This document shows positions 5,249 through 55,665 of a stretch of 64,000 bases of DNA, one piece after another. The notes under the pieces are model-generated. The model was not told the origin of the DNA. It made no database searches and worked only from the letters and a program-made list of their open reading frames with translations. The position numbers were made by a program, and so were the translations under genes. Each line of letters starts with the position of its first letter. Position 1 is the stretch's first letter. Source of the stretch: Pristiophorus japonicus (lineage: Eukaryota). The stretch is from NCBI RefSeq assembly GCF_044704955.1, contig NC_091977.1, positions 333,312,001 to 333,376,000 on the forward strand, written 5' to 3'.

Positions 5249-5288
5249 ATGTGGCCGCGTTCGGTTGTTTTAGTGACAATTTTTCTAC
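5249..5288 (+). CDS. TRGV: TCR gamma V gene A, leader exon (MWPRSVVLVTIFL)
   Basis: ATG, hydrophobic signal peptide, phase-1 GT donor at 5289. An 86-nt intron ends TTTCCCCACAG at 5374 and splices in frame to the V exon. Confidence 0.9.
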
Positions 5289-5374
5289 GTAAATTAATTT
5301 ACTCTTTATTCAAGATTCATTTGTTTTCATCGGATTGTAAAACAAACTGTAATCTGGTATTTCTTTCCCCACAG

Positions 5375-5672
5375 ATGGATGTTTTGCTGAAGATTTGAAA
5401 CAGAATCAACTGTCAGTCACCAAGCGTATGGGGAAACGCACTGCAATTACGTGTGAGCTTGAAGGTGTCGATTCTACTTACATTCACTGGTACAAACAGG
5501 CAGCAGGACAGCAGCCCGTCAGGGTGCTCTATTTCGATGGGAGCATTCGTCGGGATAAAGGATTCGGTGAAAGGTTTGCAGCGGGGATGAGTGGAAACAA
5601 ACAACACTTTCTGAATGTGGACGTCATAAAGGCGGAGGACGCCGCCACCTATTACTGCGCATATTGGAAAGG
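5375..5672 (+). CDS. TRGV: TCR gamma V gene A, V exon (intact)
   Basis: Ig V-set hallmarks: ITC, IHWYKQ, EDAATYYCAYW. IHWY and CAxW are typical of V-gamma. Directly followed by an RSS. Confidence 0.92.
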
Positions 5673-5711
5673 CACAGCGCGAAACAGCAATTCAATGCGC
5701 TTACAAAAACC
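5673..5711 (+). other. 23-spacer recombination signal sequence of V gene A
   Basis: CACAGCG + 23 nt + consensus ACAAAAACC. Confidence 0.95.
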
Positions 5712-5841
5712 TTCAAAACTCAGCAATTCAATCATAAAAACCACATCCGAGTCACAGACAACTCACAGCTGAAAACTGCCGCAATCTTCCTTCAGTTAAA
5801 CGTTTACTCTCTCGAATATCATTGAAAAATGACACAAAGTA

Positions 5842-8800
5842 ATCATCATAGGCAGTCCCTCAGAACGAGGAAGACTTGCTTCCACTGCTAAAGTGAGTCC
5901 TTTGGTGGTTGAACAGTCCAATACGAGAGCCACAGACCCTGCAACAGGTGGGACAGACATTCGTCGGGGGAAGGGGGGGGGATGGGACTGATTTGCCGCA
6001 CGCTCCTTTCCGCTGCCTGCGCTTGACCTCTTCACGCTCGCGGCATTGAGATTCGAAGAGCTCAACGCCCTCCCGGATGCACTTTCTCCACCTAGGGCGG
6101 TCTTTGGCCAGGGACTTCCAGCAGTCAGTGGTGATGTCGCACTTTACCAGGGAGGCTTTGAGGGTGTCCTTGTAACGGTTCCGCTGCCCACCTTTGGCTC
6201 GTTTGCTGTGAAGGAGCTCCGCATAGAGTAATTGAAACATTGAAACATAGAAAATAGGTGCAGGTGTAGGCCATTCGGCCCTTTGGACCTGCACCATCGT
6301 CAATAAGATCATGGCTGATCATTCACCTCAGTACCCCGTTCCTGCATTCTCTCCATACCTCTTGATCCCTTTAGCCGTAAGGGCCATATCTAACTTCCTC
6401 TTGAATATATCCAATGAACTGACATCAACAACTCTCCGTGGTAGGGAATTCCACAGGTTAACAACTCTCTGAGTGAAAAAGGTTTCTCCTCATCTCAGTC
6501 CTAAATGGCTTACCACTTATCCATACAGTGTGTCCCCTGGTTCTGGACTTCCCCAACATCGGGAACATTCTTCCTGCATCTAACCTGTACAGTCCCGTCA
6601 GAATTTTATATGTTTCTATGAGATCCCCTCCCATCCTCCTAAACTCCAGTGAATACAGGCCCAGTCGATCCAGCTCTCCTCATATGTCAGTCCTGCCATC
6701 CCGGAAAACAGACTGGTGAACCTTCGCTGCACTCCCTCAATAGCAAGAACGTCCTTCCTCAGGTTAGACCAAAACTGAACACAATATTCCAGGTGAGGCC
6801 TCACCAAGGTCCTGTACAACTGCAATAAGACCCCTATGAAGGCCAACATACCATTTGCCTTCTTCACCGCCTGCTGTACCTGCATGCCAACGTTCAATGA
6901 CCGATGTACCATGACACCCAGGTCCCGTTGCACCTCCTCTTTTCCTAATCTGCCGTCATTCAGATAATATTCTGCCTTCGTGTTTTTACCACAAAAGTGG
7001 ATAACCTCACATTTATCCACATTATACTGCATCTGCCATGCATTTGCCCACTCACCTAACCTGTCCAAATCACCCGGCAGCCTCTTAGCATCCTCCTCAC
7101 AGCTCACACCACCACCCAGCTTAGTGTCATCTGCAAACTTGGAGATGTTACATTAATTATTTAGATGAAGGAATTGAGTGTATGTTGTAAATAGCTAGGG
7201 TCCCAGCACTGAGCCCTGCGGTACCACACTAGTCACTGCCTGCCATTCCGAAAAGGACCCGTTTATCCGGACTCTCTGCTTCCTGTCTGCCAACCAGTTC
7301 TCTATCCATGTCAGTACATTATCCTCTATACCATGTGCTTTAATTTTGCACACCAATCTCTTGTGTGGGACCTTGTAAAAAGCCTTTTGAAAGTCCAAAT
7401 ACACCACATCCACTGATTCTCCCTTGTCCACTCTACTAGTTACATCCTCAAAAAATTCCAGAAGCTTTGTCAAGCATGATTTCCCTTTCATAAATCCATG
7501 CGGACTTGGACCGATCCTGTCACTGCTTTCCAAATGCACTGCTATTTCATCTTTAATAATTGATTCCAACATTTTCCCCACTACTGATGTCAGGCTACCC
7601 TGTCTATAATTGCCCGTTTTCTCTCTCCCTCCTTTTTTAAAAAGTGGTGTTACATTAGCTACCCTCCAGTCCATAGGAACTGATCCAGAGTCGATAGACT
7701 GTTGGAAAATGATCACCAATGCATCCACTATTTCTAGGGCCACTTCCTTAAGTACTCTGGGATGCAGACTATCAGGCCCCGGGAATTTATCAGCCTTCAA
7801 TCCCATCAATTTCTCTAACACAATTTCCTGACTAATAAGGATTTCCTTCAGTTCCTCCTTCTCACTAGACCCTCTATTCCCTGGTATTTCCGGAAGATTA
7901 TTTGTGTCTTTTTCATGAAGACAGAACCAAAGTATTTGTTCAGTTGGTCTGCCATTTCTTTGTTCCCCATTATAAGTTCACCTGATTCTGACTGCAAGGG
8001 ACCTACGTTTGTCTTCACTAATCTTTTTCTCTTCTCATATCTATAGAAGCTTTTGCAGTCAGTTTTTATGTTCCCAGCAAGCTTCCTCTCATACTTTATT
8101 TTCCCCCTCTGATTTAAACCCTTTGTCCTCCTCTGCTGAATTCTAAATTTCTCCCAGTCCTCAGGTTTGCTGCTTTTTCTGGCCAATTTATATGCCTCTT
8201 CCTTGGATTTAACACTATCCTTAATTTTCCTTGTTAGCCACGGTTGAGCTACCTTCCCCGTTTTATTTTTACTCCAGAAAAGGGTGTACAATTGTTGAAG
8301 TTCATCCATGTGATCTTTAAATGTTTGCCATTGCCTATCCACCGTCAACCTTTTAAGTATCATTCGCCAGTCTATTCTAGCCAATTCACGTCACATACCA
8401 TCGAAGTTACCTTTCCTTAAGTTCAGGATCCTAGTCTCTGAATTAACTGTGTCACTCTCCATCTTAATAAAGAATTCTACGATATTATGGTCACTCTTCC
8501 CCAAGGGGCCTCGCACAACAAGATTGCTAATTAGTCCTTTCTCATTACACGTCACCCAGTCTAGGATGGCCAGCTCTCTAGTTGGTTCCTCGACATATTG
8601 CTCTAGAAAACCTTCCCTAATACACTCCAGGAAATCCTCCTCCACTGTATTGCTACCAGTTTGTTTCGCCCAATCTATATGTAGACTAGAAACATATAAA
8701 ATTCTGACGGGACTGTACAGGTTAGATGCAGGAAGAATGTTCCCGATGTTGGAGAAGTCCAGAACCAGGTGACCAAGGCTGGGAACTCAACATCCAGGGG

Positions 8801-11800
8801 TATTCAACATTCAGAAAGGATAGACAGAAAGGAAAAGGAGGTGGGGTAGCGTTGCTGGTTAAAGAGGAAATTAATGCAATAGTAAGAAAGGACATTAGCT
8901 TGGATGATGTGGAATCTTAATGGTGGAGTTGCGGAATACCAAAGGGCAGAAAACGCTGGGACCCTAGCTATTTACAACATACATTAATTATTTAGATGAA
9001 GGAATTGAGTGTAACATCTCCAAGTTTGCAGATGACACTAAGCTGGGTGGTGGTGTGAGCTGTGAGGAGGACGCTAAGAGGTTGCCGGGTGATTTGGACA
9101 GGTTAGGTGAGTGGGCACCAATCTCTTGTGTGGGACCTTGTCAATCGGCTTTTGAAAGTCCAAATACACCACATCCACTGGTTCTCTCTTGTCCACTTTA
9201 CTAGTTACATCCTCAAAAAATTCCAGAAGCTTTGTCAAGCATGATTTCCCTTTCATAAATCCATGCGGACTTGGACCGATCTTGTCACTGCTTTCCAAAT
9301 GCGCTGCTATTTCATCTTTAATAATTGATTCCAACATTTTCCCCACTACTGATGTCAGGCTACCCTGTCTATAATTACCCGTTTTCTCTCTCCCTCCTTT
9401 TTTAAAAAGTGGTGTTACATTAGCTACCCTCCAGTCCATAGGAACTGATCCAGAGTCGATAGACTGTTGGAAAATGATCACCAATGCATCCACTATTTCT
9501 AGGGCCACAGTACTCTGGGATGCAGACTATCAGGCCCCGGGAATTTATCAGCCTTCAATCCCATCAATTTCTCTAACACAATTTCCTGACTAATAAGGAT
9601 TTCCTTCAGTTCCTCCTTCTCACTAGACCCTCTATTCCCTGGTATTTCCGGAAGATTATTTGTGTCTTTTTCATGAAGACAGAACCAAAGTATTTGTTCA
9701 GTTGGAAGTCCAGAACCAGGGGACACAGTGTATGGATAAGTGGTAAGCCATTTAGGACTGAGATGAGGAGAAACCTTCTTCACTCAGAGAGTTGTTAACC
9801 TGTGGAATTCCCTACCACGGAGAGTTGTTGATGCCAGTTCATTGGATATATTCAAGAGGAAGTCCATGATAACTGCTGTACCTTTTTTGCACGCATCCCT
9901 AATTTCTTGTTTGATGCTGTCCCCAACCTCACTACTGCTGTTTGGTGGTCAGTACAAAACTCGCACTAGCGTTTTCTGCCCTTTGGTATTCCGCAACTCC
10001 ACCATTAAGATTCCACATCATCCAAGCTAATGTCCTTCCTTACTATTGCGTTAATTTCCTCTTTAACCAGCAACGCTACCCCACCTCCTTTTCCTTTCTG
10101 TCTATCCTTTCTGAATGTTGAATACCCCTAGATGTTGAGTTCCCAGCCTTAGTCACCCTGGAGCCATGTCTCCGTGATGCCAATTATATCATATTCATTA
10201 ATTGCTGCCTGTGCAGTTAATTCATCCATCTTATTACAAATACTCGGCGCATTGAGACACAGAGCCTTCAGGCTTGTCTTTTTAACACACTTTGCCCCTT
10301 TAGAATTTTGCTGTAATGTGGCCCTTTTTGATTTTTGCCTTGGGTTTCTCTACCCTCCACTTTTACTTTTCTTCTTTCTATCTTTTGCTTCTGCCCCCAT
10401 TCTACTTCCCTCTGTCTCCCTGCATAGGTTCCCATCTCCCTGCCATATTAGCTTAGGGAGCCTCGTATCTGGCATGCGAACTATGTGGCCTGCCCAGCGA
10501 AACTGATCAACTGTGGTCAGAGCTTCAATGCTGGGGATTTTAGCCTGGACGAGGACACTGATGTTGGTGCGTCTGTCCTCCCAGGGGATTTGCAGGATCT
10601 TGCGGAGACATCGTTGGTGATATATCTCCAGCGACTTGAGGTGTCTTCTGTACATCTTCCATACAGGAGGGTGGGTATTACTACAGCCCTGTAGACCATG
10701 AGCTTGGTGTTAGATTTGAGGGCCTGGTCTTCGAACACTCTTTTTCCTCAGGCAGCCAAAGGCTGCACTAGCGCACTGGAGGCAATATTGAATCTCCGCA
10801 TCAATGTCTGCCTTTGTTGATAAAAGGCTCCCGAGGTATGGGAAGTGGTCCACGTTGTCGAGGGCCGCGCCGTGAATCTTGATGACTGGGGGGGCAGTGC
10901 TGTGCAGCGAGGGCAGGCTGGTGGAGGAGCTTTGTCTTACGGATGTTAAGCGTAAGGCCCATGCTTTCATACGCCTCAGTGAATACATCGACTATATCCT
11001 GGAGTTCAGCCTCAGAATATGCGCAGACGCAGGCTTCGTCTGCGTGCTGCAGCTCAACAACTGAGGTTGGGGTGGTCTTGGACCTGGCCTGGAGGCAGCA
11101 TCGGTTAAACAGCTTCCCACTGGTTCTGTAGTTTAGTTCCACTCCAGCTGGGAGCTTGTTGACTGTGAGATGGAGCATGGCAGCGAGGAAGATTGAGAAG
11201 AGGGTTGGAGCGATGACGCACCCTGTTTGATCCCGGTCTGGACGTGGATTGGGTCTGTAATGGAACCAGTGGTAAGGATCATGGCCTGCATGTCGTCATG
11301 GAGCAGGTGAAGGATGTTGACAAACATTTGGGGGCATTTTGGACTCCCCAAAGTTTGTCAACATCCTTCGCCTGTTCCATAAGCCCTCACGGTTGACGGT
11401 TGTAAGATCAAAAAAGGCCATGTATAAGGGCTGGCGCTGCTCCCTGCATTTTTCCTGCAGCTGTCACACTGAAAAGATCATGTCCGTTGTGCCCCGTAGG
11501 GGACGAAATCCGCACTGTGATTCCGGGAGGAGCTCCTCTGCAACAGGGAGAAGACGGTTGAGGAGAACTCTAGCGACAACCTTCCCAGTGGCTGAAAGCA
11601 GGGAGATTCCCCTGTAGTTGCCGCAGTCGGCCAATCCCCCTTTTTAAAGGTAGTCATGATCACTGCATCTGTGAGATCTCCCGGCATGCTCTCCTCCCTC
11701 CAAATGAGAGAGATGAGGTCATGTATCCGCACCAACAGCGCGTCTCCGCCATAACTTAGCGCCTCAGCAGGAATTCCATCCGCACTCATAGCCTTGTTAG

Positions 11801-13440
11801 TCTTGAGCTGTTTTATGGCTTTGCCTACCTCGTGCAGTGTTGGGGTTTCACTGAGGTGGTGGCGGGTCGCATGCTGCGGGATGGAGTTGAGAACACTCGA
11901 GTGAAAGGCAGAGTCTCGATTAAGGAGATCTTTAAAGTGCTCCTTCCAGTGGGCTCTAACAGCCTCAGTGTCCTTGATGAGTATTTCCCCATTCGTGGCC
12001 AGGGGTAGGGTGGGGCCATGAGAGTTTGGACCTTAGGTGGCTTTGACTGCAATGAAGAATCCTCTCATATCGTGGCTGTCGGCTAGTTGTTGTATCTCCT
12101 GTGCTTTCTCCATCCACCACCTATTTTTTAGGTCCCGGGTTTTTTGTTGGACCTCAGCCTTGAGCCGTCTGTAAAGTTGCTTTGCAGCTCCCGAGTTGGG
12201 TTGTTGCTTGAGGCTCAGAAATGCTCTGTACTTACGATATATTAGTTCTTGGATCTCCTGATCATTTTTATCAAACCAGTCCTGGTGTTTTCTGGTTGAG
12301 TAACCAAGTGTCTCTTCACAGGCACTGGTTATGGAGACCTGGAGGGCTGATCAAGCGCTGTGGGTATTCGGCATTTCAGGGTCATCAAGGCATGCCAGAT
12401 TAGCTGTAAGGAGCTGGCTGTATAGGGCTCTCGTAGCTGGGTCTTTAAGTGCCCCGGCATTAACTTTTTTGCGGCACTGCTTCAACTGTCCCCTCTGCTT
12501 TGGGGCTATGTTTATATTGATGATGGATCGGATTAGGCGATGGTCTGTCCAGCAGTCATCAGCTCCTGTCATGGCGTGGGTGATGCGCACATCCTTGCGA
12601 TCGATGGCTCGGACGATGACGTAGTCGAGCAGGTGCCAGTGTTTGGAGCAAGGGTGTTGCCACAATGCGTTGTATTTGTCCCTCTGTTGGAACAGGGTGT
12701 TACTGATGAGAAGTGCATGTTGTAGACATTTTGTCAGGAGTAGGGTACCACAGGAGTTGGCTTTCCCTACCGACTCTCTGTCAATCACGCCTCCCCAGAC
12801 TGCTATGTCTTTGCCGACCCTGGCATTAAAGTTACCTCGGAGGATCAATTTGTTGCCCGTGGGGACGCGGGACAGGGATGTCTCGATGTTGGAATAAAAA
12901 CCCTCTTTAGCCTCATCTGTTGCATCAAGTGTTGGGGCATACTCACTGATGACTGTGGTGCATTGGTTCCGGGATAGGGTAAGATAAAAAGTCATGAGGC
13001 ATTCATTAACCCTGCAGGAGGAGTCTTTGAGGCGGTCAACCAGTTCATTTTTGACAGCGAAGCCGACTCCATGAAGGCGGCGTTCTTCCTCTGATTTTCC
13101 TTTCCAGAAAAAGGCGTAACCTCCACCATGTTCCTTGAGCTGGCCTTACCCTGCCCACCGGGTCTCGCTTAGGGCAGCGATGTAAATGTCAAAATGTTTA
13201 AGTTCCCAGGCAACTATGGCAGTGAGGCGTTCCAGCCTGTTGCTGTTGAAATTGTCCATGAGGGTTCTGACGTTCCAGGTCCCGAACTTCATATTAGTGA
13301 AGTGGAAGATGCCTGTCCGTGAGTTCTTTTAACGTGGGGTGGCCGCTGCACACCGGCAACCACACGGGCTTAGCTGAACAAGGTCTTGGTCCAGTGGCAA
13401 GGGGGTCCAAGACGACTGGAGACCAGGCACTGCTGTATAA
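5842..13440 (-). mobile_element. Near full-length RTE-clade LINE, decayed, split by a CR1
   Basis: ORF start MKFGTWNVRTL at 13292 (APE endonuclease), RT fragments (ELQHADE), C-terminal CPTC..H...H finger at 5860-5960. Frame RLPK|QLLYAELL resumes across the CR1 at 6235-10451. 5' boundary approximate. Confidence 0.88.
6235..10451 (-). mobile_element. CR1 LINE (5'-truncated) nested in the RTE, internally rearranged
   Basis: ORF2 fragments (YLDFQKAF, VPQGSVLGP, RPHLEYCVQFW) and a (TTTCTATG)-type 3' tail at ~6235. Confidence 0.9.
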
Positions 13441-13811
13441 GCCGAATTGCCTACGGCAAAGTGTTGGCTGCAAGCTCGGCACTGAGTAGCGCCATTGATG
13501 GTAGATGGCCCGAGGCTTGCTTGGGGGGCCAGGCATTGGGAAGTCAGGCTGGGGTTCCGAGGGATGTTTGGAAAGTTTCTTCCAAGGTTAAAAATTTCCC
13601 CAGAGGTTTCCAAGTTGGTGTAAAAGTTTAAGAGTTTAAAAGTATTTCCAAATTATTTTTTATAAAGTTACACAGGATGATTGAAGGTTTAATAAATAGA
13701 TTAAGAGTTGATTAAAAGTTATAGAATAAAAGTTCTCCAAGTTGCTTAACAATTTTAAAGTTTTCCCGAATTGTTTAAGAAGTTTAAAAGTTGATTAAAA
13801 GTTTAAAAATT

Positions 13812-13938
13812 GAGTCCCTTTGGCCGGTTCAGCGCTGGCCCTGGAGTCCCTTCGGCCAGTTCTACGCCAGCCCTGGAGTCCCTTCAGCCTGTTCAGCGCT
13901 GGCCCCGGAGTCCCTTCCACCAGCTCAGCGTCGGCCCC
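13812..13938. repeat. 32-bp GC-rich tandem repeat, 4 copies
   Basis: Unit GAGTCCCTTYGGCCGGTTCAGCGCTGGCCCTG. Confidence 0.8.
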
Positions 13939-14645
13939 AAGCAGAATGTCCCACAGTACTGCCGGAACACTCCACCCCAGCGTTCTCCTAGTGACTGGTG
14001 GGCCATGAAGTGCCAGCGGACCTCGGAAGAGTCGGCAGGACCCCGCAAGCCCCAAAGAGCCGGCAGGCCCCAAAAGAGTCGGTGGACCCTGGTGAGCCTC
14101 GGAAGAGCCGGCGGGCCCCCAGAATAGCCAGCGGGCCCCGGGGTCCTTTCGGCCCGGTGTAGAAGCAGGCCGGTGCAAGGGATCCCCCACCGGTCCGCTT
14201 CTATCCCGGGCCGAAGGGACCCCGCACCGACCAGCTTCCTTTTACGACCTGTTCATTCATTTACCTTCAGATCCCATCTGGAACACCACGAGCAGGAGAA
14301 GCATTAACAGATCGGGTGAAATATCCCATTGATTCTCTCTACGGATGGTAGTCAGATGGTGTCCATCACCGCACTGACCCTGCCTCATAGTTCAGACACA
14401 TCCAGATCGCGCATCGCCGCACTGACCCTGCCTTAGTCCAGCTCACCCATCACCCCATTGTTTTCTAGCCCTGATTGGTTCTCTGCCCCCCCAAAAAATA
14501 GATCTAACTGGAGATCTTCATCCTCATTTCCAAAGCCTCCCCCTACTCTACCTCTGCAACCTACCCACTTTATATCCCAGGCCATCTGTCTCTGTTAACT
14601 CTTCCACTCCCGCTCAGCAGTCATTTGTCCTGTATGTAGCATCGT

Positions 14646-16205
14646 AGTATCTTTAAAAAAGGGGATAAGTCCGACTGCGGCAACTACAGAGGAATCTCCC
14701 TGCTATCAGCCGCTGGGAAAGTTATCGCTACCGTCCTCCTCAACCGTCTTCTCCCTGTGGCCGAGGAGTGACAGTGCAGATTTCGTCCCCTACGGGACAA
14801 CGCACATGATCTTTGCAGCACAACAGCTGCAGGGAGCAGCGCCAGCCCTTATACATGGCATTCTTTGTCCTTACAAAGGCCTTTGACACTGTCAACCTTG
14901 AGGGTCTATGGAGCATCCGCCTCCATTTCGGATGCCCCAAAAAGTTTGTCAACATCCTTCGCTTGCTGCACGACGATGTGCAGGCCGTGATCCTTACCAA
15001 TGGACCCATTACAGACCCAATCCACATCCGGACCGGGGTCAAACAGGTCTACGTCATCGCCCCAACCCTCTTCTCAATCTTCCTTGCTGCCATGCCACAG
15101 TCAGCAAGCTCCCCGCTGGAGTGGAACTAAACTGCAGAACCAGTGGGAAGCTGTTCAACCTTCGCCGTCTCCAGGCCAAGTCCAAGAACACCACAAACTC
15201 TGTCATCGAGCTACAGTACGCAGACGATGCCTGCGTCTGCACACATTCAGAGGCTGAACTCCAGGATACAATCAATGTATTTACTGAGGCGTACGAAAGC
15301 ATGGGCCTTACGCTAAACATCCGTAAGACAAAGGTTCTCCACCAGCCTGTCCTCGCCGCACAGCACTGCCCTCCAGTCATCAAGATCCATGGCGTGGCTC
15401 TGGACAACGTAGACCATTTCCCATTCCTCGGGAGCCTTTTATCAGCAAAAGCAGACATTGATGAGGAGATTCAGCACCGCCTCCAGTATGCCAGCGCAGC
15501 CTTTGGCCGCCTGAGGAAAAGAGTGTTCGAAGACCAGGCCCTCAAATCTACCACCAAGCTAATGGTCTACAGGGCTGTAGTAATACCCGCCCTCCTGTAT
15601 GGCTCAGAGACAAGGACCATGTACAGTAGACACCTCAAGTCGCTGGAGAAATAGCACCAACGATGTCTCCGCAAGATCCTACAAATCCCCTGGGGGGAAA
15701 GATGCACCAACATTAGCGTCCTTGTCCAGGCCAACATCCCCAGCATTGAAGCACTGACCACACTTGATCAGCTCCGCAGGGCAGGCCACATTGTCCACAT
15801 GCCAAACACGAGACTCCCAAAGCAAGAGCTCTACTCGGAACTCCTTCATGGCAAACGAGCCAAAGGTGAACAGAGGAAGCATTACAAGGACACCCTTAAA
15901 GCCTCCATGTTAAAGTGCAACATCCCCACTGACACCTGGGAGTCCCTGGCCAAAGATGGCCCTAATGGAGGAAGTGCATCCTGGAGGGCGCTGAGCACCT
16001 TGAATCTCATCGCCGAGTACATGCAGAAAACAAGTGCAGGCAGCAGAAGGAATGTGCGGCAAACCTGTCCCACCCTCCCTTACCCTCAACAACTGTGGGT
16101 CCCATCAGTGGCAGAGACTGTGGCTCTCGTATTGGACTGTTCAGCCACCTAAGGACTCATTCTAAGAGTGGAAGCAAGTCTTCCTCAATTCCGAGAGACT
16201 ACCTC
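14646..16205 (+). mobile_element. RTE-clade LINE, 5'-truncated, decayed
   Basis: [30 protein letters not shown] motifs; same family as 5842-13440. Confidence 0.88.
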
Positions 16206-16242
16206 GGAGGGGGAGGACCATTGTAGTGCTTTTTTTTACACC

Positions 16243-17520
16243 AAGTCAGCATGGATTTATGTAAGGGAAATCCTGCTTGATAAACCTTCTAGAATTTTTT
16301 GAGGATGTAACTGGTAGAGTGGACAAGGGAGAACCAGTGGATTGTGGTGTATTTGGACTTTCAAAAGGCTTTTGACAAGGTCCCACACAAGAGATTGGTG
16401 TGCAAAATTAAAGCACATGTTATTGGGGGTAATGTACTGACGTGGATCGAGAACTGGTTGGCAGACAGGAAGCAGAGAGTCGGGATAAACGGATCCTTTT
16501 CAGAATGGCAGGCAGTGACTAGTGGGTTGCCGCAGGGCTCAGTGCTGGGATCCCAGCTATTTCCAATATACATTAATGATTTGGATGAGGGAATTGAGTG
16601 TAATATCTCCAAGTTTGTAGCTGACACTAAGCTGAGTGGTGGTGTGAGCTTTGAGGAGGATGCTAAAAGGCTGCAGGGTGACTTGGACAGGTTAGGTGAG
16701 TGGGCAAATGCGTGGCAGATGCAGTATAATGTGGATAAGTGTGAGGTTGTCCACTTTGGTGGCAAAAACAGGAAGGCAGAATATTATCTGAATGGTGGCA
16801 GATTAGGAAAAGGGGAGATGCAACGAGACCTGGGTGTCATGGTACATCAGTCATTGAAAGTTGGCATGCAGGTACAGCAGGCGGCGAAGAAGACAAGGGG
16901 ATTTGTGTATAGGAGCAGGGAGGTCTTACTGCAGTTGTACAGGGCCTTAGTGAAGCCTCACCTGGAATATTGTGTTCAGTTTTGGTCTCCTAATCTGAGG
17001 AAGGACGTTCTTGCTATTGAGAGAGTGGAGCAAAGGTTCACCAGGCTGATTCCTGGGATGGCAGGACTGACATATGAGGAGAGACTGGATCGACTGGGCC
17101 TGTATTCACTGGAGTTTAGAAGGATAAGAGGGGATCTCATAGAAACATATAAAATTCTGACGGGACTGGACAGATTAGATGCAGGAAGAATGTTCCCGAT
17201 GTTGGAGAAGTCCAGGACCAGGGGACATAGTCTAAGGATAAGGGGTAAGCCATTGAAGACTGAGATGAGGAGAAACGTCTTCACTCAGAGAGTTGTTAAC
17301 CTGTGGAATTCCCTACCACAGAGAGTTGTTGATGCCAGCTCATTGGATATATTCAAGAGGGAGTTAGATATGGCCCTTACGGCTAAAGGGATCAAGGGGT
17401 ATGGAGAGAAAGCAGGAAAGGGGTACTGAGGTGAATGATCAGCCATGATCTTATTGAATGGTGGTGTAGGCTCAAAAGGCCGAATGGCCTACTCCTACAC
17501 CTATTTTCTATGTTTCTATG
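16243..17520 (+). mobile_element. CR1 LINE, 5'-truncated
   Basis: 361-aa RT C-terminal ORF (16344-17429) and TTTCTATG tail. Confidence 0.9.
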
Positions 17521-17732
17521 AATAGGAAAATAGGAACAGGGGGAGGCCATTCAGCCCCTTGAGTTTACTCAGCAATTCAATTAGATCATGGCTGATCTGT
17601 ACCTCAACTCAATTCAACCACATTTGCTTTATATCTCTTGATACCCTTATCTAACACAAATCTACCTATCTTGATCTTTGAACATTTCAATTGATCCACA
17701 GCATTCACAACCTTGTGGGGGAGAGAGGACCA

Positions 17733-19811
17733 GACATTTAAAGATCACATGGCTGAACCACAACAACTGTATATCCCTGTCTGGCGTAAAAATAAAACGG
17801 GGAAGATGGCTAACAAGGGAAATTAAGGATAGTGTTAAATCCAAGGAAGAGGCGTATAAATTGGCCAGAAAAAGCAGCAAACCTGAGGACTGGGAGAAAT
17901 TTAGAATTCAGCAGAGGAGGACTAAGGGTTTAATTAGGAGGGGGAAATAGAGTATGAGAGTAAGCTTGCAGGGAACATAAAAACTGATGGCAAAAGCTTC
18001 TATAGATATGTGAAGAGAAAAAGATTAGTGAAGACTAATATAGGTCCCTTGCAGTCAGAATCAAATGAATTCATAATGGGGAACAAGGAAATGGCAGACC
18101 AATTGAACAAATACTTTGGTTCTGTCTTCACTAAGGAAGTCACAAATAACCTCCCCAAAATACTAGGGGACCAAGGGTCTAGCAAGAAGGAGAAACTGAG
18201 GGAACTGAGGGAAATCGTCAGGAAATTATGTTAGGGAATAATGTTGGGATTGAAGGCCGACAAATCCCAGGGCCTGATAGTCTGCATCCCAGAGTACTGA
18301 AGGAAGTGGCCCTTGAAATAGTAGATGCATTGGTGGTCATTCCATGGACTCTGGATCAGTTCCTATGGATTGGAGGAGAACTAATGTAACCCCACTTTGT
18401 AAAAAAGGAGGAAGAGAGAAAACAAGTAATTATAGACAGGGTAGCCTGACATCGGTAATGGGGAAAATGCTGGAATCAATTACTAAAGATGTAATAGCAG
18501 CGCATTTGGAAAGCAGTGACAGGATCGGTCCAAGTCCACATGGATTTATGAAAGGGAAATCATGCTTGACAAATCTTCTAGAATTTTTTGAGGATGTAAC
18601 TAGTAGAGTGGATAAGGGAGAACCAGTGGATGCGGTGTATTTGGACTTTCAAAAGGTTTTTTGACAAAGTCCCACACAAGAGATTGGTGTGCAAAATTAA
18701 GGCACATGGGTTTGGGGGTAATGTATTGATGTGGATAGAGAACTGGTTGTCAGACAGGAAACAAAGAGTGGGAATAAACAGGTCCTTTTCAAAATGGTAG
18801 GCAGTGACTGGTGTGGTACCGCAAGGTTCAGTGCTGGGACCCCAGCTACTTACAAGATATATTAATGATTTAGACGAAGGAATTGAATGTAATATCTCCA
18901 AGTTTGCAGATGACACTAAGCTGGATGGCAGTGTGAGCTGTGAAGAGGACGCTAAGAAGCTGCAGGGTGATTTGAACAGGTTAGATGAGTGGACAAGTGT
19001 ATGGCAAATGCAGTATAATGTGGATAAGTGTGAGGTTATCCACTTTGGTGGCAAAAACAGGAAGCAGATTATTATCTGAATGGTGGCAGATTAGTAAAAG
19101 GCGAGGTGCAACGAGACCTGGGTGTCATGGTGGAGCAGTCATTGAAAGTAGGCATGCAAGTACAGCAGGCAGTTAAGAAAGCAAATGGCATGTTGGCCTT
19201 CATAGCGAGAGGATTTGAGTATAGGAGCAGGGAGGTCTTGTACAGGGCCTTGGTGAGACCACACCTTGAGTATTGTGTGCAGTTTGGGTCTCCTAATCTG
19301 AGGAAGGACACTCTTGCTATTGAGGGAGTGAAGAAAATGTTCACCAGACTGATTCCCGGGATGGCAGGACTGACAGATGCAGAAAGACTGGATCGATTAG
19401 GCTTATATTCACTGGAATTTTGAAGAATGAGAGGGGATCTCATAGAAACATATAAAATTCTGACGGGATTGGACAGGTTAGATGCAGGAAGAATATTCCC
19501 GATGTTGGGGAAGTCCAGAACCAGGGGTAAGGGGTAAGCCATATAGTATCGAGATGAGGAGAAACTTTTTCACTTAGAGAATTGTGAACCTATGGAATAC
19601 TCTACCTCAGAAAGTTGTTGAGTCCAGTTCATTGAATATATTCAAAAGGGAGTTAGATGTGGCCCTTATGGCTAAAGGGATCAGTGGGTATGGAGAGAAG
19701 GCGGGAGTAGGGTACTGAAGTTGCATGATCAGCCATGATCATATTGAATAGTGGTGCTGGCCCGAAGGGCCCAATGGCCTGCTCCTGCACCTATTTTCTA
19801 TGTTTCTATGT
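17733..19811 (+). mobile_element. CR1 LINE, 5'-truncated, decayed
   Basis: Frameshifted ORF2 pieces (KFADDTKL) and TTTCTATG tail. Confidence 0.88.
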
Positions 19812-20195
19812 TTCCACCATCCTTTGTATGAAGAAGTACTACCTGATTTCTCTCCCGAACAGCCTGGCTCGAATTTTAAAATTACGTTGCATCATTCAGG
19901 ATTGCCCCACCAGATGAAATAGTTCCACTGTAGCTACATCATTGAATCCTTTTATTATATTAAATATATTTATTAAATCACTCCTCAATCATCTATACTC
20001 AAGGGTGTACAAGCGAAGTTTATACAATCTGTCCTCATAACTTAGATATGGTTGTGTTGAATCTGCGCTGCACCCAAGGTATCCTTCCTGAGGTACAGTG
20101 CCCAAAACTGAATGTACTCCAGATGGGGTCTGATCAAGGCTGTGTGCAACTGAATCATAACTTCCACACTTTTGTATTCCAACCCTTTGACAGGG

Positions 20196-23451: not shown

Positions 23452-23491
23452 ATGTCGCTTTACTTAGCCCTGGCGATCGCTCTGCTGTCTT
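23452..23491 (+). CDS. TRGV: TCR gamma V gene B, leader exon (MSLYLALAIALLS)
   Basis: ATG, hydrophobic leader, phase-1 GTAAGT donor at 23492. The intron ends in (CT)n-CCAG at 23696 and splices in frame. Confidence 0.9.
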
Positions 23492-24010: not shown

Positions 24011-24049
24011 CACGGTGGTATTGTTGGATCGACACTTCGTACAAAAACC
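24011..24049 (+). other. 23-spacer RSS of V gene B
   Basis: CACGGTG + 23 nt + ACAAAAACC. Confidence 0.95.
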
Positions 24050-43090: not shown

Positions 43091-43321
43091 AGTACCTCGA
43101 GTGGAAACAGGTGCATCAACCTGACAACCGGCAAGTGTGAAATTTACCTGGGGTTTTGGGCCTGGGGATCTAGGCCTGGGAATCTGAGGCTGGGGGTCTG
43201 GGGCTGGGAGTCTGCATTTGGGCATGTGACTGGTGGTCTGGGGCTTGGACTGGGACTGGTAGTCTGGGGCTGGGTCCCTGAAGGTTTTTTTTTAAGTTTT
43301 AATTGTTTTAGCCTCTTTATA

Positions 43322-43835
43322 TGGCACAAGTCAGGAGTGTGATGGAATATTCTCCACTTCCCTGGATGAGTGCAGCTCCAACAACTTTCAAGAAACTCAA
43401 AACCATCCAGGACAAAGCAACCCGCTTTATTGGCACCCCATCCACCACCTTCTCACTCCCTCCACCACTAGCGTACCGTGGCTGCAGTGTGTACCATCTA
43501 CAAGGTGCACTGCAGCAACTCATCAAGGCTTCTTCAACACATCTCCCAAACCCGCGACCTCTACCACCTAGCAGGTGCGTAGGAACACCATCACCTCCAA
43601 GTTCCCCTCCAAGTGACACACTGACTTGAAAATATGTTGCCATTCCTTCATTGTCGCTGGGTCAAAATCCTGGAACTCCCTGTCTTACATCACTGTGGGA
43701 GCACCTTCACTACACGAATTGCAGCAGTTCAAGAAGGTGGCTCACCACCACCTTCTCAAGAGCAATTAGGGATGGGCAATAAATGCTGGCCTTGCCAGCG
43801 AAGCCCACATCCCATGAATGAATCCAAAATAAATA
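43322..43835 (+). mobile_element. CR1-like LINE 3' end
   Basis: AQVRSVMEYSPLPW peptide; 3' tail shared with SINE family 2. Confidence 0.7.
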
Positions 43836-44180
43836 AAGGGGTCCAATGGGCATAGTTCTGGGAAGTTTCTGAGGGGAGGGGGATGGCCCCCAAAACAGGC
43901 ACACCTGCTGCATTTTGTATCCCCTCCCTCTAGCAGGTGCAGGACATGGACAGGGACAGGCTCCCAACGCTATGATTTAGATTGGAGTGATGTCTCCCCC
44001 GGAACATAGAAACATAGAAAAATGGAAAATAGGTGCAGGAGTAGGCCATTCGGCCCTTTGAGCCTGCACCACCATTCAATATGATCATGGCTGATCATGC
44101 AACTTCAATACCTCATTCCTGCTTTCTCTCCATACCCCTTGATCCCTTTAGCCATAAGGGTCACATCTAACCCCATGTAC

Positions 44181-44570
44181 GCTGGTAGGTCAGCTTCATA
44201 GGTCACTGGGGATAAGCTCCAGAGGTCACTGGTGGATCAGCTCCAGAGGTCATTGATTGGTTAGCTCGAGAGGTCACTGATGGGTCAGCTCCAGAAGTCA
44301 CTAATGGGTCAACTCCAGAGGTCACTGGCAGGTCAGCTCTAGAGGTCACTGATGGGCAGCTCCCAAGGTCACTAATGGGTCAGCTGTAAAGGTCACTGGC
44401 GGGTCAGCTCCTGGGTCACTGGCGGGTGAGCTCCTGGGTCACTGGCGGGTGAGCTCCTGGGTTACTGGTGGGTGAGCTCCTGGTTTACTGGTGGGTCAGC
44501 TCCTGGGTTGCTGGTGGGTCAACTCCAGAGGTCACTGATGGATCAGCTCCTGTGGTCACTGACAGACAGT
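44181..44570. repeat. 23-24-bp minisatellite, ~16 units, AGCT-rich
   Basis: Consensus GGTCACTGGYGGGTSAGCTCCWGA; 14 AGCT sites counted. Confidence 0.9.
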
Positions 44571-44579
44571 ACCTGACAC

Positions 44580-44970
44580 AGTAGCATAGTGGTTATGTTA
44601 CTGGTGTAGTAATACAAAGGCCTGGATTAATGATTAAAGACAGGAGTTCAAATCCCATTATAGCAGCTGGGAAATTTAAATTCAATTAAGTAAAACTTCT
44701 GATATCAATAATGGTGACTATGGAACTACCAAATTGTCATAAAAACCCATCTGGTACACTATAATGTCCTTTAGGGAAGGAAATCTGCTGTCCTTACCTG
44801 ATCTGGCCTATATGTGACTTCAGATCCACAGCAATGTGGTTGATTCTTAAATGGCCTAGCAAGCCACTTATTTAAAAGGGTGGCTCACCACCATTTTCTT
44901 GAGGACAAATAGGGATGGCCAATAAATCCTGGCCTTACCAGCGATGCCCACATCCTGTGAATAAATAAAA
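44580..44970 (+). mobile_element. tRNA-derived SINE, family 2
   Basis: A-box-like TAGCATAGTGG and B-box GAGTTCAAATCC; homologous copies at ~53520-53760, 56300-56660 and 61020-61415. Confidence 0.7.
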
Positions 44971-45053
44971 TTAAAACTTGTACTGTTATAGTCGGTCAGT
45001 TTCTGATTTCTGTACTGAAGTGTGGCGATCATGTTATTGCTCAGCCCTTTATT

Positions 45054-45238
45054 GAGTAATTTTAACCTAACTCATTGAGGAAGAAATCCACAGGTTCGGG
45101 TGAAATGCCCATTTAAAATCCACTTGATATTGCTCTCCACTGACATCAGTGGAGATTAAAATCGGGCAGGTTTTAAAACCAACATTACTCCTGATCCCAT
45201 AGGTCTCCTGACTGGCAAATTAAGTTAAAATGAACCCC
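45054..45238. mobile_element. MITE-like palindromic element
   Basis: Imperfect terminal inverted repeats (ATTTTAACCTAA / TTAAGTTAAAAT) and a central hairpin TCTCCACTGA-ca-TCAGTGGAGA (45134-45155); related copy at ~59079-59210. Confidence 0.55.
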
Positions 45239-45769
45239 GTGTTCAGCACTGCAACCAGTTGCAGGCTGGTTTTCGGCAATTTTCTGTGAATACGGAGTAA
45301 ACTTGGAGTCACCGAACCTCTCAGGCTCCTTTATGGAACTTAAACGGGCATCAGATCAATGGTGGTAATCCTTTGTTCATTGAAATCAAAGGGGCTTAAA
45401 TGGATAGCTCTTTCATGAGCCGGCACAAGCGTGATGGGCCAAAAGGCCTCCTTCTGTTCTATAAGGTTGTATGATTCTATGATTGGAATCAGAGTGTGTC
45501 CTCTGAATGAATCGCAGATAGTATCAGCTTCAGGAACCCAGATAGCAGCTGCACATGCGACACCACTTCAAGAATTTCCACCTGTGTTCTGGGGCCCAAG
45601 CGGAGACCTGAATCCATGAGGTTAAAGCTGTGAATGATAAGAGGTTGAACTAAACAGTCTAGTTATTGAGAGTTGGTTTAATGCTGTGGTCTGTACGCAG
45701 CGGGGAAGAATATGTTTTCGGCTTTGGAACCAGACTGGTTGTGACAGGTAAATGTACTCCATCCTAACA

Positions 45770-47471: not shown

Positions 47472-47557
47472 GGTTATTGTCAGGCGGTGTAACAGGGTGC
47501 TAACTGTTGATTCAGACGTGAAAATCTTCGGCACTGGAACCAAGCTCTTGGTCACAG
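47472..47557 (+). CDS. TRGJ: J segment 1 with 12-RSS (coding 47500-47557, LTVDSDVKIFGTGTKLLVT)
   Basis: GGTTATTGT-12-CAGGGTG; FGxG motif; phase-1 GTGAGG donor. Confidence 0.9.
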
Positions 47558-47661: not shown

Positions 47662-47714
47662 CGCTGTGCGAATCTCTGCAGAATTTGACACTGGGACGAA
47701 ACTGGCTGTCCCAG
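47662..47714 (+). pseudogene. Pseudo-J (RISAEFDTGTKLAVP)
   Basis: Heptamer CGCTGTG without a nonamer; FDTG instead of FGxG; GA in place of the GT donor. Confidence 0.6.
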
Positions 47715-47783
47715 GAGCGGGGAGATAGTTTCCGGCCACTGCCGGTTCATTGAACTGATGGGGCCGGACCGGTGCCCCGGGAC

Positions 47784-47868
47784 GGTTATTGTAAAGTGAT
47801 ATAACACAGTGCTACCTCTGGTACTTGGAGAAAAATATTCGGCTCTGGGACTCGGCTTATTGTTTCGG
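47784..47868 (+). CDS. TRGJ: J segment 2 with 12-RSS (coding 47812-47868, TSGTWRKIFGSGTRLIVS)
   Basis: GGTTATTGT-12-CACAGTG; W-x-K-I-F-G-x-G typical of J-gamma; GTAAGT donor. Confidence 0.93.
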
Positions 47869-47981: not shown

Positions 47982-48053
47982 GGTTACTGTAGGAGGTTCT
48001 AATACCGCGTCTACCAGGTGTATACGGCATTGGGACCAAGCTCCTTGTCCACG
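47982..48053 (+). pseudogene. Pseudo-J (LPGVYGIGTKLLVH)
   Basis: GGTTACTGT-12-TACCGCG (defective heptamer); donor mutated to ATAAGT. Confidence 0.7.
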
Positions 48054-48101: not shown

Positions 48102-48176
48102 GGTTTTTGTACGGTGCTGTGTAACCGTGGTTTGCGGTAAAGGTCTTCGGGACTGGGACTAAATTGATAGTTACAG
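48102..48176 (+). CDS. TRGJ: J segment 3 with 12-RSS (coding 48130-48176, FAVKVFGTGTKLIVT)
   Basis: Consensus GGTTTTTGT-12-AACCGTG; FGxG; GTGAGC donor. Confidence 0.9.
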
Positions 48177-48217: not shown

Positions 48218-48340
48218 GGTTTTTGTGGCGTGGTAATGGTTAAGGAGAGATACTGTAACATATTGTAAGACAGAGGGTCTCCAACAGAGCTCATGAGATG
48301 AAGGTCTGCGGGACTGGAACGACACAGGCCGGTTCGTGGT
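48218..48340 (+). pseudogene. Pseudo-J, decayed J3-like copy (MKVCGTGTT)
   Basis: Orphan consensus nonamer at 48218-48226 with no heptamer at 12 nt. AAGGTCTGCGGGACTGGAAC closely matches J3 AAGGTCTTCGGGACTGGGAC. Confidence 0.55.
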
Positions 48341-48751: not shown

Positions 48752-48828
48752 AGATATTGAACAGTCCTGCACCACTGTGGTTAATAGAGACATGCAGTTC
48801 GGTGCTGGGACCAAACTCATTGTAACGG
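48752..48828 (+). CDS. TRGJ: J segment 4 with 12-RSS (coding 48780-48828, VNRDMQFGAGTKLIVT)
   Basis: Consensus heptamer CACTGTG, weak nonamer AGATATTGA; FGAG; GTAAGT donor. Confidence 0.82.
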
Positions 48829-48879: not shown

Positions 48880-48954
48880 GGCCCTTGCCGGCGGGTTTTG
48901 CACAGTGAGGAACACATTTTGCTTTTGGCGCTTGGACAAGGCTGGTGGTCGCCG
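48880..48954 (+). CDS. TRGJ: J segment 5, non-canonical (coding 48908-48954, GTHFAFGAWTRLVVA)
   Basis: GGCCCTTGC-12-CACAGTG; FGAW instead of FGxG; intact GTGAGT phase-1 donor. Confidence 0.68.
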
Positions 48955-51778: not shown

Positions 51779-52099
51779 AAAACGCACCTAGGGGACCAAC
51801 AATTCGACTTTTCCCTCCGAATACTGCGGAACTGAGCGAGCAGAGCAAAGCCCCAGTGGTCTGTCTCCTGACTGGATTCTTCCCCGAAGTTATCAGGGTT
51901 TCCTGGAAAATCGCGGAATCTCGACAAGGTGACGAGAAAGTGTCCACAGATCCGGTGGAGAAACAGAAGGACGGGAGTTACTCGGTGATCAGCCGCCTAG
52001 AAGTCTCCAAGTTAGATTGGGCGACTAAAACTATCACCTGCGAAGCACAGCACGAGTTAGCCACAGATAAAGCCACGATTGACAAGAACTCCCGAGCCG
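51779..52099 (+). CDS. TRGC: TCR gamma constant exon 1 (Ig C1 domain)
   Basis: Poly-T/AG acceptor; 321 nt, phase 1 at both ends; PTIRLFPP, VCLLTGFFPEVIRVSW, GSYSVISRL, ITCEAQHE. Confidence 0.92.
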
Positions 52100-53321: not shown

Positions 53322-53405
53322 CTATTGACAAACGCGATGATTCTCCAGATCCCACGTGTCCGCCCAGCGAGTCGGAGACTTCCGAGAGCACAAGCACGGA
53401 TGAAG
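53322..53405 (+). CDS. TRGC: TRGC exon 2, connecting peptide (AIDKRDDSPDPTCPPSESETSESTSTDE)
   Basis: Pyrimidine-rich TTTAG acceptor, 84 nt, GTAATT donor, frame-preserving; single Cys as expected for the interchain disulfide. Confidence 0.82.
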
Positions 53406-53769: not shown

Positions 53770-54890
53770 AGTAGTAAATTGGGAAAATATGATTTTAAGA
53801 GGATGAGAATGAAATTAGGGAAAATAAACTGGAAAGATTTACTGACAAAGACACAGAACAACAGTGGGAAATATTTAAAACGGTGATTAATAGAGTGCAG
53901 GAGAAATATATCCCACTAAAAAGCAGGAATAAACTAGCCAACGCTGTACAAAGAAATAAGAGTAACATTAAAACTGGAGAAAACGGTATACACTAAGTTT
54001 AGACAACAAAGGAGAAGATGACAAAAGGAATCCGAAAATAATAGGGAAGAAGTAAAAATACAATTAAGAAGGCAAAGAGAAACTACAAAATTAAATTATC
54101 AAAGAATATAAAAGGAAATAGTAAAGTATTCTACAGACACATAAATAACAAAAAGAAAATCAGGACAGGGATACGGCTACAACGGGATACGCACAATAAA
54201 CGCACAGGTAATGACAGAAAAATAGCAGAAATAGTAAATAATTTGTCTCAGTATTTACCAGGAAGACTAACATACTATGCATAAGGTTAGAAGAAGAAAT
54301 CCAAAAAGATATAAAGACATTTGAGATAGAAAGGGGGGAGATAATTGATCAACTAAACAAACTTAGAAAGGATAAGCTCTGGAATTCCCTCCCCAAACCT
54401 CTCTGCCTCTACCTCTTTCCTCCTTTTAGAAGCTCCTTGAAACCGACCTTTACTGCCCTAATATTTCCTTATGTGGCTCAGTATCCATTTGATACCAAAA
54501 CTGAGATGTTATACTTATCAGGAAAGATTGAACAGCAGAAGATTCTCTTCTCTGGAGAAAAGAGAAAACTGAGGAGTAACCTGATAGAGATCTTTAAGAT
54601 TATGAACGGGTTTGTTCGGGTAGACGCAGAGAAGATGTTTCCACTTTCTGGGGAGACCAGAACTAGGGTCATAAATTTAAGACGTTCACTAATAAATCCA
54701 TTAGAAAATTCAGGAGAAATTGTAGAATTCGTCACCACAAGGAGTAGTTGAGGTAACTAGCATAGATACATTTAAAGGGAAGTTAGATGAGCACAGGAAG
54801 GAGAAAGGAATAGAAGGATATGTTGATGAGATTAGATGCAGAAGGCTGGACTTGTTGGGCCGAATGGCTTTTTTCTATGCTGTAAATAAT
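53770..54890 (+). mobile_element. Old CR1/L2 remnants in C intron 2
   Basis: A-rich decayed ORF2-like sequence and LRSNLIEIFKIMNG peptide. Confidence 0.55.
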
Positions 54891-55517
54891 ATGTAAATTT
54901 GGAATAAAACCAATTTCGGGAAGCTCGGAATGGGCAATAAATGCAGCAATGCTTCTACCCATCGCATCTGTAAAGAGTAACGGCAGGTTGATATTTGAGG
55001 TCGAACTGGGCTGCCTCACAAAGATAGATCGGCTTTTCCGCTTTACAAATGCGAATAACCTGCTGTGTAATCCAACATTTTAGGTTTTATTCCTTCTTAT
55101 CTGAGTCCCCACCCCCCTGCCTTGAAGTACACTAGAAAAGCACGAAAGGAGATAGTTTAGGAATTCTAAAGCCACCGGAAGTAGTTTTTCCGCAGTGTTT
55201 CAAATTCGAAATACTCAAGACTGGCAATTATAAACTAATAGTCCATCTTACACATGGGGTTACTAATAATCCGGTGTTAAAGAGAATTACAGACAGTGGG
55301 ATGTTAACATAGTTGCAGAAACTTTGTGAAATCTTCGAGATTCATGCTTTGCACCAGGGTGGTTTAACAAGTGGTGTTACCTGCACCATTGCCCGTTATT
55401 CGTTACTTTTCCAAATGACCTATTTTCACACCCAGCATATCCTCCATTCCTTAGAAGCCGTAATGTGTGTGAATGAATTAGAAACTGATGACTTTTGTGT
55501 TTCTTCATTTTGCACAG

Positions 55518-55651
55518 GACCGCCTTTGAGTTCACTGCAGGTGGCGACCTTTACATACACGCTCCTGTTGATGAAGAGTGTGGTGTATTGCGGGATCATT
55601 TCATTCATCCTTTACAAGGTGGACTACCGTGATGCGAAGAAGCCGCGTTAA
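55518..55651 (+). CDS. TRGC: TRGC exon 3, transmembrane + cytoplasmic tail
   Basis: GPPLSSLQVATFTYTLLLMKSVVYCGIISFILYKVDYRDAKKPR*. Single intramembrane Lys in YxLLLxKSVVY, as in gamma chains. Confidence 0.92.
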
Positions 55652-55659
55652 CTGGTATC

Positions 55660-55665
55660 AATAAA
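55660..55665 (+). terminator. Candidate polyadenylation signal AATAAA
   Basis: 8 nt after the stop, followed by GT/T-rich sequence; an alternative AATAAA lies near 56164. Confidence 0.5.

What the first reader, a model, noticed from the sequence alone, without database searches (positions are those of the whole stretch)
5249..55665. Rearrangement-competent TCR gamma V-J-C locus of a probable cartilaginous fish, buried in transposons
Seen: two intact V genes with 23-RSS, a J cluster with 12-RSS, no D, and one three-exon C with correct splice phases throughout. Known: V23/J12 without D plus a single-Lys YxLLLxKSxxY TM defines TRG, and shark TRG is reported to undergo somatic hypermutation. Inference: the locus is TE-expanded (18 kb between the Vs, 23 kb from the last V to J1) relative to the compact ~32-kb sandbar shark locus I recall from memory. 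More V genes probably lie upstream of the window.
Basis: partly seen in the sequence, partly recalled or inferred. Interest (0 to 1): 0.7.

Follow-up and report, generated by a model that had tools for sequence, protein, structure and literature searches.

The report
Shark T-cell receptor gamma locus
This window holds the 3' half of a shark's single, transcribed and spliced T-cell receptor gamma gene cluster (7 intact V pieces, 6 open J pieces and 1 constant gene over 114 kb), which likely builds receptors by ordinary cut-and-join recombination; it is a known kind of locus, and its one oddity is that the usual upstream neighbour gene lies 16.5 million bases away.

Summary
Observation confirmed; verdict ordinary. 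Both V genes, their 23-RSS, a 12-RSS J cluster, no D (scan with a positive control) and a three-exon C are there. The C groups 99/99 with nurse-shark TCR gamma, apart from TRB and IgL, is single-copy, and STARD3NL- and EPDR1-like genes follow on the opposite strand. A contig of run X1 splices J-C1-C2-C3 and starts 4 nt inside the J with 106 unplaced letters before it, which fits a V-J joint. Five more intact V lie upstream: whole locus 7 V, 6 J ORFs (3 with strong RSS), 1 C, 114 kb. Corrections: a J at 45,689 was missed (gap 21.6 kb); the TM motif does not define TRG, since this genome's TRB chains share it; 114 kb is an ordinary TRG size; the 32-kb sandbar figure and hypermutation were not testable. 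New side result: the 5' neighbour is SUSD5, not AMPH, likely through an inversion. The scan has already noted ordinary shark TRG loci in at least four other genomes.

The parts
5249..5288 (+). V6 leader exon (6th of 7 intact V in the locus)
   Evidence: ATG and phase-1 GT donor
5375..5672 (+). V6 exon, open, V-set domain, ends YYCAYWK; closest to a white-shark V gamma (63%)
5673..5711 (+). 23-RSS of V6 (1 mismatch in heptamer, perfect nonamer)
5720..23400 (.). LINE-type retrotransposon fragments and other repeats between V6 and V7 (67% locally repeated)
23452..23491 (+). V7 leader exon
23697..24010 (+). V7 exon, open, V-set domain, ends YYCAAKS (no Trp, unlike the other six); no close partner among 22 shark gamma chains compared
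24011..24049 (+). 23-RSS of V7
24060..45650 (.). Repeat-filled V-J interval (LINE and LTR-retrotransposon fragments, 76% locally repeated); no D segment found
45661..45747 (+).
47472..47557 (+). Jb: strong 12-RSS and open J (47500-47557)
47669..47716 (+). pseudo-J (FDTGT, no GT donor, decayed nonamer)
47784..47868 (+). Jc: strong 12-RSS and open J (47812-47868); the J found spliced to C in run X1
48010..48052 (+). pseudo-J (broken heptamer, no GT donor)
48102..48176 (+). Jd: strong 12-RSS and open J (48130-48176)
48290..48340 (+). possible J relic (VCGTGT, no RSS, no donor)
   Evidence: picked by eye
48752..48828 (+). Je: perfect heptamer, weak nonamer, open J (48780-48828) with GT donor
48880..48954 (+). 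Jf: heptamer without a usable nonamer; open J (48908-48954) with FGAW for FGxG and GT donor; likely not used
51779..52099 (+). C exon 1, C1-set domain (Cys 29 and 88 of the C region)
53322..53405 (+). C exon 2, connecting peptide with one Cys (predicted interchain bond)
55518..55651 (+). C exon 3 coding part: transmembrane helix with one Lys, short tail, stop
55652..56065 (+). 3' untranslated part of exon 3 (at least to 56065; ATTAAA at 56071)

Best explanation
This is the V-proximal, J and C part of a shark's single T-cell receptor gamma (TRG) locus, transcribed and spliced, in which RAG likely joins one of seven V genes directly to a J by deletion to make a gamma chain predicted to pair with a delta chain and CD3. 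Shown: 7 open V genes with 23-RSS, 6 open J (3 with strong 12-RSS), one three-exon C, all on one strand; no D; a spliced Jc-C1-C2-C3 contig; C in the TRG clade. Inferred: V-J joining by the 12/23 rule with loss of 22-107 kb of mostly transposon DNA; the 106 unplaced letters at the contig's 5' end are a V with a trimmed joint; pairing through the connecting-peptide Cys and the TM Lys. Carried over from other sharks and untested here: AID hypermutation of the rearranged V. The transposons likely lengthened the spacers without touching the coding segments or the J cluster (0% repeated).
For: RSS above chance. D scan empty between V7 and C while the same scan finds a 12/23-flanked D in this genome's TRB-type loci (strict setting: 1 of 5 stretches, L062:7860; relaxed: 2 of 5, also L064:3038). 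Tree of 27 C domains: window C in a 10-row clade, 99/99, with nurse-shark 'T-cell receptor gamma chain' ADW95914; TRB-type and IgL/IgH-type rows outside. Exon 1 is 50-64% identical to the 9 shark gamma-type chains and 29-36% to the 7 TRB-type chains; exon 3 is 76% identical to nurse-shark TRG; all 11 PDB matches of exon 3 at E up to 10 are TCR-complex chains, 9 named gamma (weak singly, E 0.12-2.3). C has no second copy: best other place 34%. MENTAL-family (STARD3NL-like) exons 54-60 kb past the C on the opposite strand and an ependymin-family (EPDR1-like) gene behind them, as described for Xenopus and human TRG (PMC12529555, passage). Spliced contig in run X1, entering Jc 4 nt inside its coding end where no AG acceptor lies. 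Five of the 7 V families have counterparts at 51-74% in other sharks.
Against: The V end of the contig was never displayed, so a V-J joint, its frame and the absence of a D-like core in a transcript are inferred. One contig from one run whose kind is not on record; X2 gave only an unspliced piece of exon 1. No labelled TRA or TRD constant region was in the tree. Three of the six open J have poor RSS and showed no cover. AMPH, the customary 5' marker, is not adjacent. NCBI labels 8 of 8 automatically annotated shark orthologues as IgL or TRB, and the PDB search with exon 1 ranks multi-domain Ig heavy chains first; both reflect generic C1-set likeness.
Confidence: 0.95

Rival explanations
1. It is a TCR beta locus whose D was overlooked or lost.
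For: TM motif is shared with TRB; the best non-self C in the genome is TRB-type (34%); NCBI calls the catshark orthologue 'T cell receptor beta chain-like'.
Against: No D at settings that find the TRB D; the genome's TRB-type loci lie on C11 and C1166 and fall in other branches; TRG-type 3' synteny.
Confidence: 0.01
2. It is an immunoglobulin light-chain V-J-C unit, as the automatic labels say.
For: V-J without D; 7 orthologues labelled lambda- or kappa-like.
Against: A spliced connecting-peptide and transmembrane exon; this genome's light-chain C exons stop right after the domain and group apart; single copy and many V to one C.
Confidence: 0.005
3. It is TRG but partly decayed: the two window V genes, cut off by 18-35 kb of transposons, or the weak-RSS J segments are rarely or never used.
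For: V7 lacks the terminal Trp and has no close counterpart; V6 lacks the TCAYTTCC promoter motif; only Jc was seen in a contig.
Against: Both V are open with canonical splice sites and near-perfect RSS; V6 has a white-shark counterpart in a V-J-C gene model (63%). Contigs cannot show absence.
Confidence: 0.2
4. The contig is a sterile or chimeric J-C transcript and rearrangement is not shown in this animal.
For: The 106 5' letters were not placed on any V (V genes lay outside the two stretches laid).
Against: They do not continue on the germline DNA upstream of Jc, which was within the stretch, and there is no AG at the entry point.
Confidence: 0.07

Closest known systems
Sandbar shark (Carcharhinus plumbeus) TRG translocon, Chen et al. 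2009 (paper not held; seen only through PMC7349638 section 6, and PMC5931798 passages)
   Same: One V-J-C translocon, one C, each V its own family; three J with strong RSS here match the three J reported.
   Different: 7 intact V plus a stub instead of 5; three further open J with weak RSS and three relics; 114 kb long. The sandbar length could not be checked.
Nurse shark (Ginglymostoma cirratum) TCR gamma chains ADW95910-ADW95915
   Same: C exon 1 50% and exon 3 76% identical; V1 and V3 match nurse-shark V at 63-66%; same J types.
   Different: cDNA only; 9 V genes inferred there from clones, with hypermutation (PMC5931798, passage); no mutation data here.
Tetrapod TRG neighbourhood AMPH-TRG-STARD3NL-EPDR1 (PMC7349638, PMC12529555, PMC8456604; passages)
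   Same: [quoted passage not shown]
   Different: 5' neighbour is SUSD5 (head to head, about 135 kb from V1), then a CRTAP-like gene; the AMPH-like gene is 16.5 Mb downstream.

Membership tests
TRG locus | V with 3' 23-RSS and J with 5' 12-RSS in joining orientation | tested here: met
TRG locus | No D segment in the germline | tested here: met
   0 pairs at two thresholds; TRB D recovered as control
TRG locus | C domain orthologous to known TCR gamma | tested here: met
   99/99 clade with nurse-shark ADW95914; TRA and TRD references absent from the tree
TRG locus | Three-exon C with connecting-peptide Cys and a single TM Lys, spliced to J | tested here: met
   the TM pattern alone does not separate TRG from TRB
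TRG locus | V-J joints in transcripts | tested here: inconclusive
   contig enters Jc 4 nt inside with 106 unplaced letters; V not displayed
TRG locus | Chain pairs with TCR delta and CD3 on T cells | not testable with these tools
   inferred from orthology
Hypermutating shark TRG | Somatic point and tandem mutations in rearranged V | not testable with these tools
   only contigs available; reported for sandbar and nurse shark (PMC5931798 passages)
Tetrapod AMPH-TRG-STARD3NL neighbourhood (customary marker, not a definition of TRG) | STARD3NL 3' and inverted | tested here: met
   MENTAL exons C1:333421744-333427419 (-); named STARD3NL from family and position next to EPDR1-like, not from a tree
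Tetrapod AMPH-TRG-STARD3NL neighbourhood (customary marker, not a definition of TRG) | AMPH immediately 5' | tested here: not met
   only amphiphysin-family match on C1 is at 349.85 Mb; SUSD5 is 5'
TRB locus | D segment between V and J | tested here: not met
TRB locus | C groups with TRB | tested here: not met
Ig light chain | C ends after one domain, no TM exon | tested here: not met
TRA/TRD locus | TM with an Arg and a Lys (recalled, from no call) | tested here: not met
   one Lys only in the helix
TRA/TRD locus | C groups with TRA or TRD | not tested
   no labelled reference obtained

The most novel reading that the evidence does not exclude
The order CRTAP-SUSD5-TRG-STARD3NL seen here is the ancestral cartilaginous-fish arrangement, so the AMPH border used to delimit TRG in tetrapods is a bony-vertebrate acquisition; TRG then sits at a reused chromosomal breakpoint and needs nothing from its 5' neighbour, with V transcription driven by a short shared promoter element (TCAYTTCC, 63-70 bases before the start in 5 of 7 V).
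Probability: 0.2. Interest if true: 0.4.

Novelty: new member of a known kind. Interest (0 to 1): 0.2.

Why it matters
It gives a complete germline map (7 V, 6 J ORFs, 1 C) for a shark TRG, which is what a test of T-cell receptor hypermutation in this lineage needs, and it corrects a recurring annotation error (orthologues in 8 shark genomes are labelled light chain or TCR beta). It shows that a transcribed TRG can lack the AMPH border. It does not change what is known about how the locus works.

Tried and rejected
PDB search with C exon 1: top hits are multi-domain Ig heavy chains, uninformative. The look-up of sequencing runs: no RNA holder listed; two runs of unrecorded kind. No cover on Ja, Jb, Jd, Je, Jf in X1 or X2: contigs do not show absence. 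Germline AID-hotspot density in roughly drawn CDRs against frameworks of the 7 V: 0.071 against 0.082 per base, no enrichment, and no test of hypermutation. Idea that the V stub at -97.5 kb was cut by the inversion, its 5' half lying elsewhere on C1: no such half among 150 scored candidates. PRKDC, once reported 5' of chicken TRG, is 95 Mb away here. CLASP_N search gave nothing on C1; SH3 search showed nothing near the locus among 150 scored of 403. CTCF-like motifs just behind V RSS, a lead from other loci of this genome: a crude consensus scan found none within 80 bases of the 7 RSS; the nearest is about 0.5 kb behind V5 and most matches are one repeated sequence. Two self-BLAST runs timed out and were replaced by a 16-mer count, which is a lower bound on repeat content. 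D scan on 9 C-side stretches of the TRB-type loci found none; the controls came from 5 further stretches.
Full report
Setting. The window is G000:C1:333312001-333376000 in a 5.9-Gb genome. A TRB-type exon of G000 is 100% identical to a UniRef protein labelled Pristiophorus japonicus, so the animal is probably that sawshark; all close relatives of the C region are shark proteins. One N run (51246-51389) lies in a CT-rich tract of the J-C intron.

Observation. Both V genes are open from leader to RSS with phase-1 introns, and match the V-set family. Strong RSS number 2 (23 spacer, + strand) and 3 (12 spacer, - strand) against shuffle means of 0.03 and 0.01. Three relics lie among them. The C has three exons and gives 179 residues with the two domain cysteines, one connecting-peptide cysteine, a helix with a single lysine and no N-glycosylation site. 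No D-like pair of RSS was found between V7 and C at two thresholds, and at the loosest the count (6 rows, 3 sites) is at shuffle level (mean 4.7). The same scan finds a 12/23-flanked D in the TRB-type loci (strict in 1 of 5 stretches, relaxed in 2 of 5).

The whole locus. Fetching 440 kb upstream and 100 kb downstream showed five more intact V with 23-RSS at window positions -57.6, -41.6, -40.2, -37.5 and -29.9 kb, and a 3' stub of a V behind a LINE end at -97.5 kb with a broken heptamer. Two genome-wide V searches (150 candidates scored each) gave no other V on C1. The seven V are 32-49% identical to each other; five have counterparts at 51-74% among 22 gamma-type chains of other sharks, V5 and V7 do not (a small comparison set). 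The C has one place in the genome; the next best is 34% identical. From V1 to the transcript end the locus spans 114 kb.

Identity. In a tree of 27 constant domains the window's C falls in a 10-row clade (99/99) with nurse-shark ADW95914, named T-cell receptor gamma; TRB-type rows (tuatara, skink, sharks, G000) and this genome's IgL- and IgH-type rows (my labels) are outside. The sister accession ADW95913 is the TCR gamma reference in PMC12227049 (passage). TRA and TRD were not in the tree. Exon 3 is 76% identical to nurse-shark TRG and its 11 weak PDB matches are 9 chains named gamma and 2 named TCR or CD3. The 8 automatically annotated shark orthologues are labelled light chain (7) or TCR beta (1).

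Expression. Run X1 (kind not on record) holds a 1112-nt contig that covers C exons 1-3 with both GT..AG joints and runs to 56065. A record of the same length and depth lies on Jc from 47816 to 47868 at record positions 954-1006, abutting exon 1. Jc starts at 47812, so 4 bases are missing, no AG lies at the entry point, and the remaining 106 letters do not continue on the germline upstream. This fits a trimmed V-J coding joint; the V was not displayed. X2 gave a 178-nt piece of exon 1 only.

Mechanism. Shown: segments, signals, splicing. Inferred from V(D)J rules (own knowledge; V-J for gamma chains also in PMC12227049, passage): RAG pairs a V 23-RSS with a J 12-RSS, deletes the DNA between, and the joint is spliced to C; the chain would pair with TCR delta and CD3. 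Hypermutation of TRG V is reported for sandbar and nurse shark (PMC5931798, passages; PMC7349638, section 6) and was not tested here.

Transposons. 15 of 33 long non-Ig ORFs scanned (of 45 listed) match RT, RNase H, integrase or endonuclease families, several below the curated cut-off. By a 16-mer count 67% of the V6-V7 gap, 76% of the V7-J gap, 0% of the J cluster and 61% of the whole locus are locally repeated, against 49% and 42% of the flanks; 45 kb is left. So the locus is repeat-filled somewhat above its surroundings, in a very large genome, yet its length is ordinary: alligator 115 kb, rhesus monkey 120 kb, human 160 kb (PMC8456604, passage).

Neighbourhood. 3' side as in Xenopus and human (PMC12529555, passage): STARD3NL-like exons on the opposite strand 54-60 kb past C, an EPDR1-like gene 150 kb further. 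5' side differs. The only amphiphysin-family match on C1 is at 349.85 Mb, + strand, 16.5 Mb downstream; its exon scores best with amphiphysin (46.6 bits against 41.5 for BIN1). Upstream lie a link-domain exon 135 kb before V1 and a sushi exon 95% identical to bamboo-shark SUSD5, both on the - strand, then a leprecan-family (CRTAP-like) exon; there is no N between them and the locus. An LSF-type CP2 gene, probably UBP1 (85% to the bichir protein), is at 344.65 Mb on the + strand; in bichir a gene model fuses UBP1 to SUSD5 (P0190), so they are neighbours on one strand there, as I recall for human. LRRFIP lies between, at 339.6-339.8 Mb. An inversion of about 11.5 Mb with one break between SUSD5 and UBP1 and the other between AMPH and TRG, plus a second flip of the AMPH block, would explain this (inference). 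Which order is ancestral cannot be told from one genome; a private inversion is more likely than an ancestral state, and a scaffolding error cannot be excluded for the distant genes. Searches for this in print found no paper on shark TRG flanks; subscription journals and supplements of shark genome papers were not searched and may hold it.

Papers seen: PMC7349638 (passages and section 6), PMC5931798, PMC12227049, PMC12529555, PMC8456604, PMC6795676, PMC11754216 (passages only); Chen 2009 and 2012, Criscitiello 2010 (not seen; cited through those).

Verdict. A real, intact, transcribed shark TRG locus; a new member of a known kind. Earlier notes of this scan describe the same kind of locus in at least four other cartilaginous-fish genomes (unchecked). 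Interest 0.2, carried by the complete germline map and the displaced AMPH.

Noticed in passing
G000:C1:332.87-333.25 Mb and 339-350 Mb (L027, L077, L080, L039, L040, L081): 5' neighbour of TRG is SUSD5 then a CRTAP-like gene; AMPH-like, UBP1-like and LRRFIP genes lie 6-16.5 Mb downstream, suggesting an inversion relative to bony vertebrates.
   Followed up: partly
window positions -366.8 kb to -194.4 kb (e.g. L032): A 172-kb array of a 22-base satellite fills the SUSD5 intron between the link and sushi exons.
   Followed up: partly
63-70 bases upstream of the ATG of V1, V3, V4, V5 and V7 (V7 at window 23386): Shared motif TCAYTTCC in 5 of 7 V promoters, background 0.007 per 150 bases; resembles an AP-1/CRE half-site joined to an ETS site (recalled). 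Found by eye, so the contrast is inflated.
   Followed up: partly
G000:C11:26.19 and 26.24 Mb; C1166:0.40 and 0.44 Mb (L041-L044): Two divergent TRB-type constant genes (35% identical) face each other, each with its own J and TM exon, and the pair recurs in a diverged form on C1166; one type has a cloudy-catshark counterpart at 67%. Could be a two-isotype TRB in sharks.
   Followed up: partly
G000:C22:9725001-9735000 (L048:928 and 2398-2682): A J-like segment with a heptamer 1.4 kb before a C1-set exon whose best PDB match is the multi-domain UrIg2; it groups with none of the TCR or Ig rows (long branch).
   Followed up: no
L013 (window positions about -130 kb to -123 kb): Endogenous-retrovirus-like relic with gag-, pol- and env-like pieces 65 kb upstream of V1; described only.
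   Followed up: no
L010 (window positions -97580 to -97470): 3' stub of a V5-like gene directly behind a LINE end, heptamer broken; its 5' part was not found.
   Followed up: yes
window 1178-3288 and 38710-41145: Fragments of LTR retrotransposons (RNase H, integrase) on opposite strands, one before V6 and one between V7 and the J cluster.
   Followed up: no
G000:C3:27956516-27956728: A MENTAL-domain match spanning profile positions 30-100 in one frame, where the C1 and C21 genes have introns: possibly a retrocopy or third paralogue.
   Followed up: no
window 55905: One T>C difference between the window and the X1 contig in the 3' untranslated part: allele or error.
   Followed up: no
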